Position numbers and translations under genes: made by a program. This document shows, in pieces, positions 275-8,123 of a stretch of 9,751 nt of DNA. The first letter of the stretch is position 1; each line of letters begins with the position of its first letter. The notes beneath the pieces are model-generated. The model was not told the origin of the DNA. It worked only from the letters and a program-made list of their open reading frames with translations, and did no database searches. The DNA comes from Octopus sinensis (lineage: Eukaryota): contig NW_021827853.1 in assembly GCF_006345805.1 (NCBI RefSeq), forward strand, positions 1 through 9,751, written 5' to 3'.

Positions 275-565
275 CCTTAAATTATCTACCTGTGTATTCG
301 CTTATCCGATTGTATGGTTGCTTTCTCATTTTTTTATGACTCTTTCTTGCGTGTGCATATACAATCTTATTTTTTTTGTTTGTTATTCCACAGTATTGGC
401 ATAACTTCCAATCTATATAGGTTCCAACTATGTCGTGTCTGCAAACATATTCCTTGTTAACCAGGACAGTGCATCCAGAGACAATATGATTTATTGTTGC
501 TTGTCCATCTCCACATGTTCTGCAGTTACTTGTATTTATTTTCATTGCATGCTTTTGTATTATTT
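273..565 (-). pseudogene. R4/Dong-like RLE non-LTR retrotransposon fragment (CCHC zinc knuckle + RHD motif)
   Basis: Within ORF 282..674: CRTCGDGQATINHIVSGC (C-x2-C-x8-H-x4-C) followed by EYVCRHD..G.YI.WKLC, typical of the region preceding the RLE; 273-320 aligns by eye with ~7951-8000; bounded by ATT repeats on both sides (196-272, ~568-582). Confidence 0.85.
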
Positions 566-804
566 TCATTATTATTATCATTTCGATTAAATCTCTGCTT
601 ATCTTGCTGGGTATGATGGAAAATTTCAGCTGCCCACAGCCAGCAGATTTAGGTGACATTTGTTTACTGATCATGCTTCAAGAACACTGCAGAGAATTCT
701 TACAGTTTCAAGCATTGGTGATTTTTGTAAGTGTTTTATCTTTATATTTGTAGCAATCTTAATGAGTCTCTAGTCCTATTCCTAGTAGAATTTATGTAAG
801 TAAT

Positions 805-866: not shown

Positions 867-1096
867 CTCTTTCTCATTTCATGATAGCAACGTGTAATAT
901 GAGTTATCGTCACAATATGGATTTGGTTACTGTGTTAAAGTTACGATTTCTGTGCGGTTTAACTGCTTGCTTACATGTCCGCATTATGACTGGATACTGA
1001 GGAAAGACAGTACAATTGTTTTCTTTATGCATATATGATTTGTGGTCGTCAAGTTTTGTTGGGAAGAATAAACTTCTGTTTTATGTGTTATATTGT

Positions 1097-1342
1097 GGAG
1101 GCGCGTGGCTTAATGGTTAGAGTGTTGAACTCATGATCGTAAGGTTGTAGTTTCGATTCCTCGACTGGGCGATGCGTTGTGTTCTTGAGCAAAACACTTC
1201 ATTTCACGTGGCTGCAGTCCACTCAGCTGGCGAAAATGAGTAATCCTGCGACGGACAGGCGTCCCATCCAGCTGGGGAATTTCCCCGCCACTGAAACCGG
1301 GAAACCGGCCCTTATGAGCCTGGCATGGTTCGAGAAGGAACA
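1097..1342 (+). mobile_element. Full-length tRNA-derived SINE (family B) with 13-bp target-site duplication
   Basis: A box TGGCTTAATGG (1106-1116), B box GTTTCGATTCC (1150-1160), CORE-like TGTGTTCTTGAGCAAAACACTT, central CCTGCGACGGACAGGCGTCCCATCCAG recalled from widespread metazoan SINE domains; flanking direct repeat TTTATGTGTTATA at 1080-1092 and 1343-1355. Confidence 0.88.

Positions 1343-2416: not shown

Positions 2417-2446
<30 letters not shown>
2417..2446. repeat. (TA)n microsatellite
   Basis: Read directly. Confidence 0.95.
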
Positions 2447-2449
<3 letters not shown>

Positions 2450-2646
2450 AATCCAAACATGAACAAGCAAGAAAAAAACCACAACGTGAGGACGTGGAAT
2501 AAGTACAGTGTTATTGGACGCCCAGGAAAGGAAAGAAAACAAAAAGAGGATTTCACGTTCCGAGCGGAGCTCTTCATCAGAAATATAGAAAAGTTCCAGA
2601 GAAGTGAAGACGGAAAAAGAAAATCGTCAACGATACACGCGCGGTC
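2447..2646 (-). mobile_element. Short Penelope-like pLTR/retrozyme-like element in (TA)n, with degenerate hammerhead motif
   Basis: 200-bp non-repetitive island with TA arrays on both sides; hammerhead-like motif at 2550-2584; shares GAAGAGC-loop-GCTCG and TTCCTG(G/A)GCGT with 4619-4812. Confidence 0.6.
2550..2584 (-). ncRNA. Degenerate minimal type I hammerhead ribozyme motif
   Basis: Minus strand ATTT-CTGATGA-A-GAGC-TCC-GCTC-GGAA-CG-T-G-AAAT: stem I ATTT/AAAT, stem II GAGC/GCTC, palindromic ACGT stem III; GAAA->GGAA and G at position 17 depart from the core. Confidence 0.6.
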
Positions 2647-2743
2647 ATATATTGATATATATATAATATTATTATATATATATGTTTGTGTGTTGTATGT
2701 ATGTATATATATATAATATTTATATATATATATATTATATATA

Positions 2744-2793
<50 letters not shown>

Positions 2794-2810
2794 ATATGTA
2801 TGTATGTATT
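2647..2810. repeat. (TA)n/(TATG)n compound microsatellite
   Basis: Read directly. Confidence 0.95.
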
Positions 2811-3344
2811 AAACACATGCATATGTCGATTTGTGATGGTGGGGCCGGTACATGTGTCCTTGCATATATTCAGATAGATAAATAAATTGATAGGTGGTTA
2901 GATAAACAGTCAGACAAGCAGATACGATGTGTGAATTTGTGAATCGTGTACTTGTGTGTATATCTGAGCCACAATTAAGTTTTCTCTAGCCAGGAGAATC
3001 TTCATGTAGAATATTACAAAAGAATCTTGACGAACCAACTACTCTATTTCAGTGACCATTCTTGACAGTTGCAATTTCAGTATAGCAGTGTAGAAGTCTC
3101 ATATTTCCTGCTACTTGCAGAGATATCACGATATCCGTAGACGCCTATTCGTTTAAATTTCTAAGTTATTGTTCGATAGTAATAATAACATTTTATCAGG
3201 CATCACTGGTATTCGATGGCATTAAGATACTTCATATTATGCCGGAAATACGAGGAATATATTTCCATAGGTTGTGGATGTCAATATGATATATATAAAT
3301 ATATGACGTTAATATATTGTACATATTCTCAGATATTACATAAA

Positions 3345-3364
3345 TATATATGTATGTATGTGTG

Positions 3365-3398
<34 letters not shown>

Positions 3399-3887
3399 TG
3401 TATATGATGCATGCATGTATATATGTATGTATGTATGTACGTATGTATGTATGTATGTATCTATCTATCAACCTATATAGATGTAATATCGGAATACATA
3501 CACATATAGATATATGTATATACGTGTATGTATATGTGTTTTCCGGACTTGTTTATTGACACAATTTCTTTGTATGTATATATATATATATCTATATATA
3601 TATATAGATATATATATATATATATATGTCTATATATATAATATATATATACATATATACATATGCATATAGATATATACATACGTATTATGCACGTATA
3701 TGCATATATATGTATATATACACACATATATGTATGTATATCTATATATGCATGCACACACAGAGACACACGCACACACACACGCACGCGTACACACTCA
3801 CATGCACGCACACAACACACTCACACATACACACATACGCGCGCGCGCACACAACACACACACACACACATACACACACACGCGCGC
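3345..3887. repeat. Complex microsatellite: (TATG)n, (TA)n, (CA)n, short (CG)n
   Basis: Long alternating purine-pyrimidine tract, interrupted at ~3537-3570. Confidence 0.93.
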
Positions 3888-3888
3888 A

Positions 3889-4325
3889 AAGAAGCTTGAG
3901 TCGGTGAAACAGATGAGCTACTGGGAGACGCTACAGGAACTGAAGCTCTACTCCCTGGAAAGAAAGCGAAAAATGTATGTAGTGTTATACATATGGAATA
4001 TCCTGGAAGGTCAAGCTCCCAACTTTGGAATTAAAAACGATACCAGCCACCGAACTGTAGGGCACTGCATAACACCAACGATACTGCCTTCTTCATCACA
4101 GATATGGATCTATTATTGCAGCAGCTTGGCATTCAGTGGATGAAAGCTATTTAAAATCCTGCCAAGAAATTTACGTGGTCTGCAAGGTGTAGATGTGGAA
4201 ACGTTTAAAAAGCACATCACAGCAGCAGGCAGTTTCGTCCAACCCGTTTCTTCACCATGAGCAGTACCGAAAGGAGAACCTGAAACATTGAAAGGCGTTG
4301 CTCCAGCATGACTCCAGCCTCTTGT
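3889..4325 (+). pseudogene. 5'-truncated CR1/L2-group LINE 3' end (ORF2 C-terminus plus 3' tail)
   Basis: MSYWETLQELKLYSLERKRKMYVVLYIWNILEGQAPNFGI matches the SY.ERL..L.L.SLE.RR motif of CR1-group ORF2 C-termini; same frame continues past TGA (4141) as KLFKILPRNLRGLQGVDVETFKK (cf. LFN.LP...FK); tail at 4291-4319. Confidence 0.82.
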
Positions 4326-4385
4326 TTAAAAAAAAGTAAAATAATAAAAGAAAAAACTAAAAGTATATATATATATATATATATA

Positions 4386-4486
4386 CTTGATATATCGGTT
4401 CCATTCTAACAAAAACTGTCTGATGAACGGCAACGAGAAACTCAGAGTAACAGATTTTGTTGAATTTTCTGCTGCTTTAAATAAAG
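4386..4486 (+). mobile_element. Short Penelope-like pLTR/retrozyme-like fragment in (TA)n carrying a hammerhead ribozyme
   Basis: ~100-bp island between TA arrays; hammerhead at 4408-4461; AATAAA at 4480-4485. Confidence 0.62.
4408..4461 (+). ncRNA. Minimal type I hammerhead ribozyme motif, predicted cleavage 3' of GUA (after 4449)
   Basis: Stem I AACAAAAaCTGT (4408-4419)/ACAGaTTTTGTT (4450-4461), 11 of 12 pairs; CTGATGA 4420-4426; stem II a-CG-GCAA-CG-a; GAAA 4437-4440; quasi-palindromic stem III ACTC-A-GAGT; H17=A. Confidence 0.82.
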
Positions 4487-4561
4487 TATATATATATATA
4501 TATATATAAATACATACATACATATATATACATATATACATCTCTCTATCAATCTATCTAT

Positions 4562-4592
<31 letters not shown>

Positions 4593-4618
4593 CTATATAT
4601 ATATATATATATATATAT
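4487..4618. repeat. (TA)n/(TACA)n/(TCTA)n microsatellite
   Basis: Read directly; further TA tracts at ~4364-4385 and ~4813-4847. Confidence 0.95.
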
Positions 4619-4809
4619 GGGGGGAAGTTCACGAAAAAATAAAAGACGAAGACGGAGGAGTACAAAACAACCAGATGTATTAGTATAACGCTCAGGAATA
4701 GAGAAAGTCTTTTACATTTCGAGCCTACGCTCTTCTACAGAAAAGGACACAGAAAAAAACAAGGAGAGAAACAAGGAGAGAAAAAAATTTGTGTAGTGGC
4801 TACCGATCT

Positions 4810-4812
<3 letters not shown>
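4619..4812 (-). mobile_element. Short Penelope-like pLTR/retrozyme-like element in (TA)n, with variant hammerhead motif
   Basis: 194-bp island between TA arrays; motif at 4707-4748; internal tandem AAACAAGGAGAG x2 (~4757-4780); related by eye to 2447-2646. Confidence 0.6.
4707..4748 (-). ncRNA. Variant hammerhead-like motif (CUGUAGA core)
   Basis: Minus strand GTCCTTTT-CTGTAGA-A-GAGC-GTAG-GCTC-GAAA-TG-T-A-AAAGAC; stem II 4 bp, GAAA intact, GUA triplet, bulged stem I. Confidence 0.55.
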
Positions 4813-4849
<37 letters not shown>

Positions 4850-7534: not shown

Positions 7535-8050
7535 CAGTAGTTTTATTTTTATAGCGTGGCTTTCACTTCACTACCGAGCGCAGCTCTGTGTGCCTTGGGT
7601 ATGTGCTGTGATTTGTTGTGATGCTCTGATGGTTATTGTATGGAAAGTGTTCTGCGTAGGATGTGTGCAGTGCCTAGTAGTGCAATTTTCTGTATGTTAT
7701 ATGTGTTGTAAGTCCTGGTGTTTTTGTTATGTATTTGTCTGAATATTTTTTTATCATGCCTAATGCACCTACTATGATAGGAATTGTTTCTGTTTTCAGG
7801 TTCCACATTCTAGTTACCTCTATTTCCAGGTCTTTGTATTTTGAGAGTTCTCCATTTCTTTTAGAGACACGTTGTCATCTGCCGGTATTGATACATCAAT
7901 TAAAAAGCATTTTTTTTCTTCATGATCTCTGACAACTATATCTGGTCTGTTGGCCTTAATTTCTCTATCTGTGTGTATCGGCATATCCCAGAGTATGGTT
8001 GTATCGGCATATCCCAGAGTATGGTTGTATCGGCAAATCCCAGAGTATGG

Positions 8051-8052
<2 letters not shown>
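7535..8052 (-). mobile_element. 5'-truncated R4/Dong-like retrotransposon 3' end: PD-(D/E)xK-type RLE domain plus ~100-nt 3' UTR
   Basis: Minus strand, bridging two 1-nt deletions (~7848, ~7706): TILWDMPIHTDREIKANRPDIVVRDHEEKKCFLIDVSIPADDNVSLKEME(K)LSKYKDLEIEVTRMWNLKTETIPIIVGALGMIKKYSDKYITKTPGLT(N)TYNIQKIALLGTAHILRRTLSIQ*; PD at 7945-7940, stop at 7635-7633; UTR runs into (TAA)n. Confidence 0.93.
7975..8052. repeat. Three tandem 26-bp copies GTATCGGCATATCCCAGAGTATGGTT
   Basis: 7975-8000, 8001-8026, 8027-8052 (one T>A in the third). Confidence 0.97.

Positions 8053-8123
<71 letters not shown>

What the first reader, a model, noticed from the sequence alone, without database searches (positions are those of the whole stretch)
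2447..4812. Three distinct hammerhead-bearing short elements, each inserted in (TA)n: a candidate microsatellite-targeted ribozyme retroelement system
Seen: 2447-2646 (-), 4386-4486 (+) and 4619-4812 (-) are 100-200-bp non-coding islands, each flanked both sides by TA arrays and each centred on a hammerhead-type motif; the last two lie convergently in one TA tract. No GIY-YIG or PLE RT sequence was recognised in the window. Inference: either 5'-truncated Penelope-like termini or non-autonomous retrozyme-like families mobilised by a TA-targeting PLE. Whether they are already catalogued cannot be determined here.
Basis: partly seen in the sequence, partly recalled or inferred. Interest (0 to 1): 0.75.

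Follow-up and report, generated by a model that had tools for sequence, protein, structure and literature searches.

The report
Penelope-like retroelement tails in TA repeats
The three islands are the short 3' end pieces of three families of Penelope-like retrotransposons that sit in TA microsatellites and carry hammerhead-type motifs, a kind of element already described in octopus and other invertebrates, so the finding is real but ordinary.

Summary
All three islands sit at the stated coordinates, between TA arrays, and each holds a hammerhead-type core.

They are not a new system. Each is the 3' terminus of a high-copy Penelope-like element (PLE).

- Island 2 (4386-4486, +) matches many other copies at 99-100%. 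Long copies encode a 709-aa reverse transcriptase plus C-terminal GIY-YIG protein. It shows the diagnostic motifs of the published Hydra clade, which is (TA)n-targeted, hammerhead-bearing and listed for Octopus bimaculoides.
- Islands 1 and 3 (both on the minus strand) are related to each other. They are the ends of older Neptune-like PLE families.

TA runs adjoin the 3' ends of 26 of 27, 17 of 29 and 19 of 28 sampled copies. At control positions the figure is about 5%.

Only island 2 has a complete hammerhead. Island 1's copy has lost GAAA. Island 3's family carries CUGUAGA in 4582 exact copies, against 40 with CUGAUGA. Rfam matches none of the three.

No retrozyme-like tandem arrays were seen. 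However, family 1 has a recurrent ~205-nt short form with a fixed 5' end.

Verdict: a known kind, possibly an uncatalogued family. Low interest.

The parts
2417..2446 (.). (TA)15 array next to the 3' end of island 1
   Evidence: period 2, 15 copies, 100% matches.
2447..2655 (-). Island 1: a ~205-nt short form (3' terminus) of an old Neptune-like PLE family ('family 1'). The 3' end is at 2447. The 5' end lies at about 2655, at the family's recurrent boundary.
   Evidence: 3585 first-look candidates; the 39 other scored matches are 88-92% identical; fixed 3' end, variable 5' end; long copies (L148/L110, L119, L124) hold endonuclease and linker remnants 43-56% identical to the family-3 protein; the boundary is shared by 57 of 100 sampled copies.
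2545..2597 (-). Hammerhead-like core of island 1. CUGAUGA is at 2574-2580, a 4-bp helix II follows, and GGAAC stands in place of GAAAC at 2557-2561 in this copy.
   Evidence: Of 30 sampled copies, 25 have CUGAUGA and 26 have GAAA; the window copy is the only one with GGAA. In this sample 25 of 30 have G at the cleavage-site position. Genome-wide, exact 27-mers ending in G number 111 and those ending in A/C/T number 200.
2647..2809 (.). Imperfect AT/TA array next to the 5' end of island 1
   Evidence: period 2, 78% matches.
4364..4385 (.). (TA)11 array next to the 5' end of island 2
4386..4486 (+). Island 2: a 5'-truncated 3' terminus, without the optional 72-nt tail, of a young, abundant Hydra-clade PLE
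   Evidence: 46 other matches, 45 of them near full length at 96-100% identity; most copies run on upstream into the element, and the 3' end is followed by (TA)n; long copies carry a 709-aa ORF; the motifs match the published Hydra clade.
4408..4461 (+). Type I hammerhead motif of island 2. Helix I is 4408-4419 with 4450-4461. CUGAUGA is at 4420-4426. Helix II plus a GCAA loop is at 4427-4436. GAA is at 4437-4439. A near-palindromic helix III is at 4440-4448. The predicted cleavage lies between 4449 and 4450.
   Evidence: sequence; the published Hydra-2_aMil row has the same helix III arms, the same cleavage-site A and the same first four helix I pairs; two copies co-fold with helix III formed between the molecules (-26.6 against 2 x -12.2 kcal/mol); 2397 exact copies of the 38-mer, control 0. 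Cleavage itself was not tested.
4487..4618 (.). TA-rich array shared by the 3' ends of islands 2 and 3
   Evidence: period 2, 66.5 copies, 78% matches.
4619..4812 (-). Island 3: 3' terminus of a Neptune-like PLE family ('family 3'). It is slightly shorter than the family's recurrent ~205-nt short form.
   Evidence: 2441 candidates; the 39 other near-full-length matches are 90-93% identical; long copy L129 has a 344-aa frame with YIDD, a CX4CxxC linker and a GIY-YIG region with two cysteines; full-length relatives of 600-1100 aa carry precomputed PF00078 and PF01541.
4705..4750 (-). Hammerhead-like core of island 3. CUGUAGA is at 4734-4740, followed by a 4-bp helix II, and GAAAU is at 4716-4720.
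   Evidence: 26 of 29 sampled copies read CUGUAGA and none reads CUGAUGA; 4582 exact genome copies of the CUGUAGA form against 40 of the CUGAUGA form.
4813..4847 (.). (AT)17.5 array next to the 5' end of island 3

Best explanation
The three islands are 3'-terminal pieces of three Penelope-like retrotransposon families that lie in TA microsatellites, and they were likely laid down by target-primed reverse transcription that stopped early. Shown: each island is a copy of a repeat with thousands of members, and its longer copies encode reverse transcriptase plus a C-terminal GIY-YIG endonuclease. Island 2 belongs to a young Hydra-clade family; islands 1 and 3 belong to two older, related Neptune-like families. 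The 3' ends are fixed and adjoin TA runs far more often than control sites do. Inferred from published PLE work: the endonuclease would nick (TA)n, and the cysteine linker upstream of it is the suspected guide. Reverse transcription would start at one of two internal sites near the RNA's 3' end, which would give copies with or without the 72-nt tail. It would often end early, or at a defined RNA 5' end, leaving 100-205-nt tails. Priming on both target strands would give the head-to-head inverted pairs. The hammerhead motif in this terminal region is predicted to cut only as a dimer. It is probably not needed for transposition.
For: Copy number and identity.

Continuity with coding copies:
- Island 2.
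- Island 3: (L129, 344-aa frame).
- Island 1.

[quoted passage not shown] These were compared by eye with PMC8557442 section 11 and its supplementary alignment.

GIY-YIG identity: a 43%-identical relative (P0003) passes Pfam PF01541 at residues 504-529. That stretch aligns to residues ~591-617 of our protein.

TA targeting: 26 of 27, 17 of 29 and 19 of 28 copies have a TA run next to the 3' end, against 32 of 580 and 27 of 560 control positions.

Two 3' end forms: 17 copies without and 10 with the 72-nt tail. This matches the two reverse-transcription start sites of PMC11167929 (passages read).

Inverted head-to-head partners: and 15 pairs among the first 100 places. PMC8557442 describes this arrangement.

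The hammerhead form matches published Hydra rows.
Against: - Our Pfam copy found no family in either PLE protein. Clade placement therefore rests on motifs read by eye and on relatives' domains, not on a tree.
- The element is about 3.3 kb, whereas the Hydra clade is described as generally under 3 kb.
- Helix II of island 2 has only two Watson-Crick pairs and an A-A at 10.1/11.1.
- Rfam hammerhead models did not match.
- Random 5' truncation does not explain why 57 of 100 sampled family-1 copies end at one site.
- No full-length family-1 or family-3 copy was recovered.
- No transcription, cleavage or transposition was observed.
Confidence: 0.9

Rival explanations
1. Islands 1 and 3 are members of a discrete ~205-nt non-autonomous element (solo-pLTR or SINE-like). 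It would have its own RNA 5' end and be copied in trans by the PLE enzyme, rather than being aborted copies of the long element.
For: -: among the first 100 of 408 places that keep the boundary 19-mer, 57 have foreign DNA directly upstream and 43 run on into the long element (my count). About 19 of the 57 upstream flanks are not TA-like, which argues against simple microhomology.
- family-3 copies cluster at a (CA)GTCGCCAT boundary. One search shows the same boundary in sister families.
- A 2026 preprint argues that animal retrozymes derive from PLE pLTRs (10.64898/2026.07.22.740005; abstract and section 14 read).
Against: - Short and long copies are interspersed on a tree: 12 label changes against a shuffled mean of 10.9, with 432 of 500 shuffles as low. 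The tree is star-like and the test is weak.
- Both subfamilies have long and short forms.
- The window's island 3 and 8-9 of 28 sampled family-3 copies are shorter than the fixed form.
- No promoter was identified.
Confidence: 0.25
2. The islands are non-LTR retrozymes: tandemly repeated hammerhead units expressed as small circular RNAs and mobilised by PLEs.
For: They carry type I hammerhead-like motifs, have low G+C, are 100-205 nt long and coexist with PLEs. These are traits listed for metazoan retrozymes in PMC7229834 (passages read).
Against: - There are no head-to-tail copies in the window.
- Among the 29 sampled loci of each family, second copies are mostly inverted. The few same-strand pairs are 590-1444 bp apart.
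- In the first 100 places there is no same-strand pair under 1 kb.
- The arrays found (566 bp x3, 522 bp x2, 305 bp x2, ~1.6 kb x3) repeat flanks and unrelated DNA along with the unit.
- The unit ends are not at the predicted ribozyme cut.
Confidence: 0.04
3. The hammerhead-like strings are chance matches in AT-rich repeat DNA and have no ribozyme ancestry.
For: No Rfam hammerhead hit. Two of the three window copies break the core consensus.
Against: - Island 2's motif agrees part by part with hammerheads published for other Hydra-clade elements, at the same place near the 3' end.
- Families 1 and 3 show the traits listed for PLE minimal hammerheads in PMC4209133: an extra base after A9, a G10.1-C11.1 pair and a palindromic 15.2-16.2.
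- Sister families keep the canonical core.
Confidence: 0.03

Closest known systems
Hydra-clade Penelope-like elements (Craig, Yushenova, Rodriguez, Arkhipova 2021, PMC8557442), including Hydra-1_Obim of Octopus bimaculoides and Hydra-2_Amil
   Same: [quoted passage not shown]
- RWK and DKT motifs, a CxCX5C linker, no CCHH, and CxxC/CxH motifs.
- Insertion into (TA)n.
- A hammerhead near the 3' end. Its helix III arms, cleavage-site A and helix I start are the same as in the Hydra-2_aMil row.
   Different: - It is a different family from Hydra-1_Obim. An 11-residue word of our protein is absent from the paper's supplement, and the N-termini differ by eye.
[quoted passage not shown]
- It is about 3.3 kb long, with a ~1.1-kb 3' UTR.
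- Helix II is reduced to two pairs with an A-A at its base.
- The tail is 72 nt, where 30-40 nt is quoted for PLEs.
Neptune/Nematis-type C-terminal EN+ PLEs (Arkhipova 2006, as summarised in PMC8557442)
   Same: Families 1 and 3 have YIDD, a CX4CxxC linker that fits CX2-5CxxC, and a GIY-YIG region with two cysteines. Their relatives carry RVT_1 plus GIY-YIG. They show a microsatellite bias and a hammerhead-type motif in the terminal region.
   Different: - The choice between Neptune and Nematis was not tested by a tree.
- Only 5'-truncated, decayed copies were seen.
- Family 3's core reads CUGUAGA.
Minimal type I hammerheads of PLEs (Cervera and de la Pena 2014, PMC4209133)
   Same: An extra base between A9 and 10.1, a G10.1-C11.1 pair, a palindromic 15.2-16.2 with little or no helix III so that a dimer is needed, and a location in the terminal repeat.
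   Different: Helix II is 4 bp here, against 6-8 bp in the Schistosoma and Drosophila examples quoted. Family 3 breaks the CUGANGA core. The window's family-1 subfamily has G at the cleavage-site position.
Metazoan non-LTR retrozymes (Cervera and de la Pena 2020, PMC7229834; Li, Clavereau, Pollet 2026 preprint)
   Same: Short non-coding units with type I hammerheads, coexisting with PLEs and related to PLE termini.
   Different: The copies here are dispersed and single, not seamless tandem arrays. The hammerheads are of the minimal PLE type. No circular RNA evidence could be obtained.

Membership tests
EN+ Penelope-like elements | One ORF with reverse transcriptase and a GIY-YIG endonuclease | tested here: met
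   - The 709-aa ORF has YRDDG and a GIY-YIG-like C-terminus.
- A relative passes Pfam PF01541, and the hit maps onto our residues ~591-617.
- The family-3 frame has YIDD plus GIY-YIG motifs, and its relatives carry PF00078 and PF01541.
- Our own Pfam scans of the two proteins found nothing.
EN+ Penelope-like elements | Partial tandem (pLTR) and inverted 5'-truncated partner copies | tested here: met
   Hydra-type family only.
- Direct upstream partial copies are seen in L099 and L100, and inverted ones in L095, L096, L101 and L103.
- 13 of 29 loci hold a second copy, nearly always inverted.
- There are 15 head-to-head pairs in the first 100 places.

Not established for families 1 and 3.
EN+ Penelope-like elements | Optional 'tail' extension at one end | tested here: met
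   Of the Hydra-type copies, 10 carry a 72-nt extension before the TA run and 17 do not. This is longer than the 30-40 bp quoted in PMC8557442.
EN+ Penelope-like elements | Insertion bias for microsatellites | tested here: met
   26/27, 17/29 and 19/28 copies against about 5% of control positions.
Hydra clade of PLEs | RWK present, DKG changed to DKT, no CCHH in the endonuclease, CxCX5C linker, CxxC and CxH near the conserved E and N | tested here: met
   Read by eye against the text and alignment of PMC8557442. The L095 copy has F in place of the second linker cysteine; L091 and L103 keep it. No phylogeny was run, because reference sequences could not be brought in.
Hydra clade of PLEs | Short element, generally under 3 kb | tested here: not met
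   About 3.3 kb from the start of the body to the 3' end in L095. The excess is a ~1.1-kb 3' UTR.
Hammerhead ribozyme, type I | Core CUGANGA ... GAAA with helices I, II and III and a non-G base at the cleavage site | tested here: inconclusive
   - Island 2 meets it, with a weak helix II.
- The island 1 copy does not: it has GGAA and G at the cleavage site. Family 1 at large does (200 exact copies with A/C/T).
- Island 3 and its family do not: they read CUGUAGA.
- No Rfam hammerhead model matched.
Hammerhead ribozyme, type I | Self-cleavage | not testable with these tools
   Only contigs of runs of unsure kind were on hand, so RNA ends cannot be read.
Metazoan non-LTR retrozymes | Seamless head-to-tail arrays of 150-450-bp units, each with a hammerhead | tested here: not met
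Metazoan non-LTR retrozymes | Unit-length circular RNAs | not testable with these tools
   No raw RNA reads were available.

The most novel reading that the evidence does not exclude
The Neptune-like family behind island 3 spread to at least 4582 copies while carrying CUGUAGA. That hammerhead core breaks the CUGANGA rule at an adenine that, from my recall of mutagenesis work, is essential. Only 40 copies, in sister families, keep the canonical core. This would be a natural knock-out showing that ribozyme catalysis is dispensable for Penelope-like retrotransposition in vivo.
Probability: 0.45. Interest if true: 0.4.

Novelty: new member of a known kind. Interest (0 to 1): 0.2.

Why it matters
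Mostly for annotation. These islands should be masked as PLE termini and not chased as a new ribozyme system.

Three smaller points could interest transposon specialists.
- A Hydra-clade PLE has been active recently and on a large scale in a cephalopod-like genome. The clade was described from few, low-copy families.
- A PLE family expanded with a broken hammerhead core. This agrees with in vitro work in which ribozyme mutants still inserted (PMC11167929).
- The Neptune-like families have a fixed-length ~205-nt short form. It may mark the RNA 5' end inside the terminal repeat and link PLE termini to retrozyme-like derivatives.

Tried and rejected
- **Rfam scans.** The whole window at E<=1 and 4370-4500 at E<=10 gave no hammerhead family, only microRNA-like hits on microsatellites.
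- **Pfam scans.** Nothing was found in the Hydra-type ORF, its C-terminal 404 aa, its last 123 aa, or the family-3 frame.
- **tblastn of the Hydra-type protein against family-1 and family-3 loci.** Only stray weak hits. The link to PLEs came from open frames in longer copies instead.
- **Full-length family-3 copy.** Four upstream stretches were fetched and all were 5'-truncated. The 5' pLTR question stays open.
- **RNA evidence.** No RNA holder is listed. All 22 runs are contigs of unsure kind, and the four I laid show only rising depth towards the 3' end, with no readable starts or ends.
- **Retrozyme reading.** Tandem arrays hinted at were fetched. They proved to be segmental duplications.
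- **Snap-back at helix I** as the origin of inverted pairs. I considered it and dropped it, because both arms keep the whole core.
- **Earlier notes of this scan.** None exist for this genome.
- **Repbase and Dfam.** They could not be consulted. Whether these exact families are catalogued is unknown.
- **One review (PMC6155905).** Searched for a statement on core positions; none specific was found.
Full report
**1. The observation**

The window is repeat-rich non-coding DNA with no long intact ORF. Tandem Repeats Finder places TA-type arrays at 2417-2446, 2647-2809, 4364-4385, 4487-4618 and 4813-4847. Islands 2 (+) and 3 (-) face each other 3' end to 3' end across one array.

Each island holds a hammerhead-type string.
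- Island 2 has CUGAUGA at 4420-4426 and GAA at 4437-4439. It sits between a 12-position helix I (4408-4419 with 4450-4461) that has one A-A mismatch.
- Island 1 has CUGAUGA on the minus strand (2574-2580), but GGAAC stands where GAAAC is expected.
- Island 3 reads CUGUAGA (4734-4740, minus strand), followed by GAAAU.

No Rfam hammerhead model matched, either at E<=1 on the whole window or at E<=10 on 4370-4500. Islands 1 and 3 align with each other at 73% column identity, so 'three distinct' overstates the case.

**2. What the islands are: island 2**

The window lies in a 2.72-Gb genome. Island 2 drew 1161 first-look candidates. Of the 46 other matches, 45 are near full length at 96-100% identity. 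Its 38-nt core string occurs exactly 2397 times, against 0 for the reversed control.

In most copies the sequence runs on upstream, so the window copy is cut off at its 5' end. Long copies carry an open frame of about 727 codons. L095 gives a 709-aa ORF.

Read by eye, that protein has the following motifs:
- RWK and DKT.
- YRDDG.
- A CxCX5C linker (in L091 and L103; L095 has F for the second cysteine).
- A GIY-YIG-like stretch with no cysteines inside it.
- CxxC and CxH motifs near the end.

These are the features by which Craig et al. 2021 define the Hydra clade of Penelope-like elements. That paper also reports insertion into (TA)n and readily detected hammerheads (PMC8557442, section 11 read in full; supplementary alignment seen in passages).

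Our Pfam copy found nothing in the protein. However, a 43%-identical relative passes PF01541, and the hit maps onto our residues ~591-617.

The paper's supplement lists Hydra-1_Obim from Octopus bimaculoides with a (TA)n preference. An 11-residue word of our protein is absent from that supplement. This is therefore another family of the same clade, as far as that one check goes.

**3. Islands 1 and 3**

These drew 3585 and 2441 candidates. The best other copies are 88-93% identical. Their 3' ends are fixed and their 5' ends vary.

Upstream of a family-3 terminus, copy L129 has a 344-aa frame with YIDD, a CX4CxxC linker and a GIY-YIG region with two cysteines. Full-length relatives of 600-1100 aa carry precomputed RVT_1 and GIY-YIG domains.

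Family-1 long copies hold linker and endonuclease remnants that are 43-56% identical to that frame. Both are thus Neptune-like PLEs (Neptune or Nematis; no tree was run), with 3' UTRs of about 1 kb or more.

No PLE protein is coded in the window itself.

**4. TA targeting**

I scored whether a perfect TA run of 8 nt or more lies within 20-25 nt of the 3' end.

| Family | Copies with TA run | Control positions in the same loci |
|---|---|---|
| Hydra-type | 26 of 27 scored | not run |
| Family 1 | 17 of 29 | 32 of 580 |
| Family 3 | 19 of 28 | 27 of 560 |

Two of the 29 Hydra-type loci were not scored. Most of the non-TA flanks still begin with TA, or are TA-derived repeats such as TATG or TACA.

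**5. Architecture**

The Hydra-type family has two 3' end forms. One ends directly at the TA run (17 copies). The other carries a 72-nt extension first (10 copies). This is the PLE 'tail'. Frangieh et al. 2024 traced it to two internal reverse-transcription start sites (PMC11167929, abstract and passages read).

Second copies near a terminus are nearly always inverted and head to head: 13 of 29 loci, and 15 pairs within 300 bp among the first 100 places (my count). Direct partial copies lie upstream of the body in L099 and L100. Both arrangements are the published PLE pattern (PMC8557442). Priming on both target strands would produce the inverted pairs; that step is inference.

**6. The hammerheads**

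Island 2's motif can be laid out in the columns of the paper's hammerhead table. Helix III arms (ACUC and GAGU around one base), the cleavage-site A and the first four helix I pairs are the same as in the Hydra-2_aMil row. Helix II differs: two pairs closing GCAA, with an A-A at its base.

Two copies co-fold with helix III formed between the molecules, at -26.6 against 2 x -12.2 kcal/mol. This fits the dimer model of Cervera and de la Pena 2014 (PMC4209133, passages read).

Families 1 and 3 show that paper's minimal-hammerhead traits: an extra base after A9, a G10.1-C11.1 pair and a palindromic ACGU.

Each has a defect, however.
- **Family 3.** 26 of 29 sampled copies read CUGUAGA and none reads CUGAUGA. 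Genome-wide there are 4582 exact copies of the 25-mer with CUGUAGA, against 40 with CUGAUGA. The six of those 40 that I looked at are sister families, 75-89% alike. CUGUAGA fails the CUGANGA descriptor used in the field. That the changed adenine is essential is my recall, not a call.
- **Family 1.** The window's subfamily has G at the cleavage-site position (25 of 30 copies). Across the genome the forms with A/C/T are commoner: 200 against 111 exact 27-mers.

Cleavage was not tested.

**7. The rival: separate short elements**

I found no seamless head-to-tail arrays. The arrays that the pattern lists hinted at are segmental duplications that repeat flanks and unrelated DNA. The retrozyme definition is therefore not met.

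Plain random truncation is not the whole story, though. Among the first 100 of 408 places that keep family 1's boundary 19-mer, 43 run on into the long element. The other 57 have foreign DNA right upstream, and in about 19 of those it is not TA-like (my count). Family 3 and its sisters cluster likewise at (CA)GTCGCCAT.

Island 1 is a member of this ~205-nt form. Island 3 is slightly shorter.

On a tree of 15 short and 17 long family-1 copies, the two labels are interspersed: 12 changes against a shuffled mean of 10.9. This gives no sign of a separate lineage, but the tree has no well-supported branches. Eight of the 40 fetched copies were left out because the script could not place their 3' ends.

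The cause of the fixed 5' end is unresolved. A transcript start inside the terminal repeat is my favoured guess.

**8. Verdict**

The finding is real and well described. It is a known kind of element: TA-targeted, hammerhead-bearing Penelope-like retrotransposons, here represented by truncated tails. At most these are uncatalogued families. Repbase and Dfam could not be checked.

Noticed in passing
Genome-wide; window 4734-4740 (-): The family-3 hammerhead-like core reads CUGUAGA in 4582 exact 25-mers, against 40 with CUGAUGA. The family expanded with a core that breaks the CUGANGA rule.
   Followed up: partly
Window ~2647-2655 (-) and family-1 copies; family-3 copies: There is a recurrent ~205-nt short form with a fixed 5' end. 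In family 1, 57 of 100 sampled copies end at one site. Family 3 and its sister families cluster at (CA)GTCGCCAT.
   Followed up: partly
L016/L017, L005/L006, L012, L027; first 100 places: Hydra-type termini often occur as head-to-head inverted pairs. Some junctions lie in a palindrome (CCGATATATCGG) just upstream of the hammerhead. Others lie only ~7-12 nt upstream of the core.
   Followed up: partly
L155:1364-3101: A 566-bp unit is repeated three times at 98.5-99% identity. It holds a family-1 short copy, TA tracts and ~290 bp of unrelated DNA with inverted ends (MITE-like).
   Followed up: partly
Window 3890-4320 (+): An open frame ending in ...LKLYSLERKRKMY... and an A-rich stretch looks like the 3' end of a LINE-type element. 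It abuts the TA array that received island 2.
   Followed up: no
Window 7820-8137 (-) and 282-677 (-): These frames have LINE-like C-terminal motifs (NRPDIVV...LIDVSIP, and a cysteine-histidine knuckle). They are probably decayed non-LTR elements.
   Followed up: no
Window 1088-1330 (+), 8905-9290 (+), 61-190 and 1727-1860: tRNA-like and other SINE-like repeats, some next to (ATT)n arrays. The same sequences recur in flanks of many fetched loci.
   Followed up: no
Window 7540-7770 and 8625-8835; 7975-8052: Two ~210-bp direct repeats flank a long (ATT)n-rich array (8050-8620). A 26-bp unit is repeated three times at 7975-8052.
   Followed up: no
L007:1568: In contigs of four public runs, most related copies read G where this family has the A that makes the helix I mismatch. 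This points to sister subfamilies of the Hydra-type terminus.
   Followed up: no
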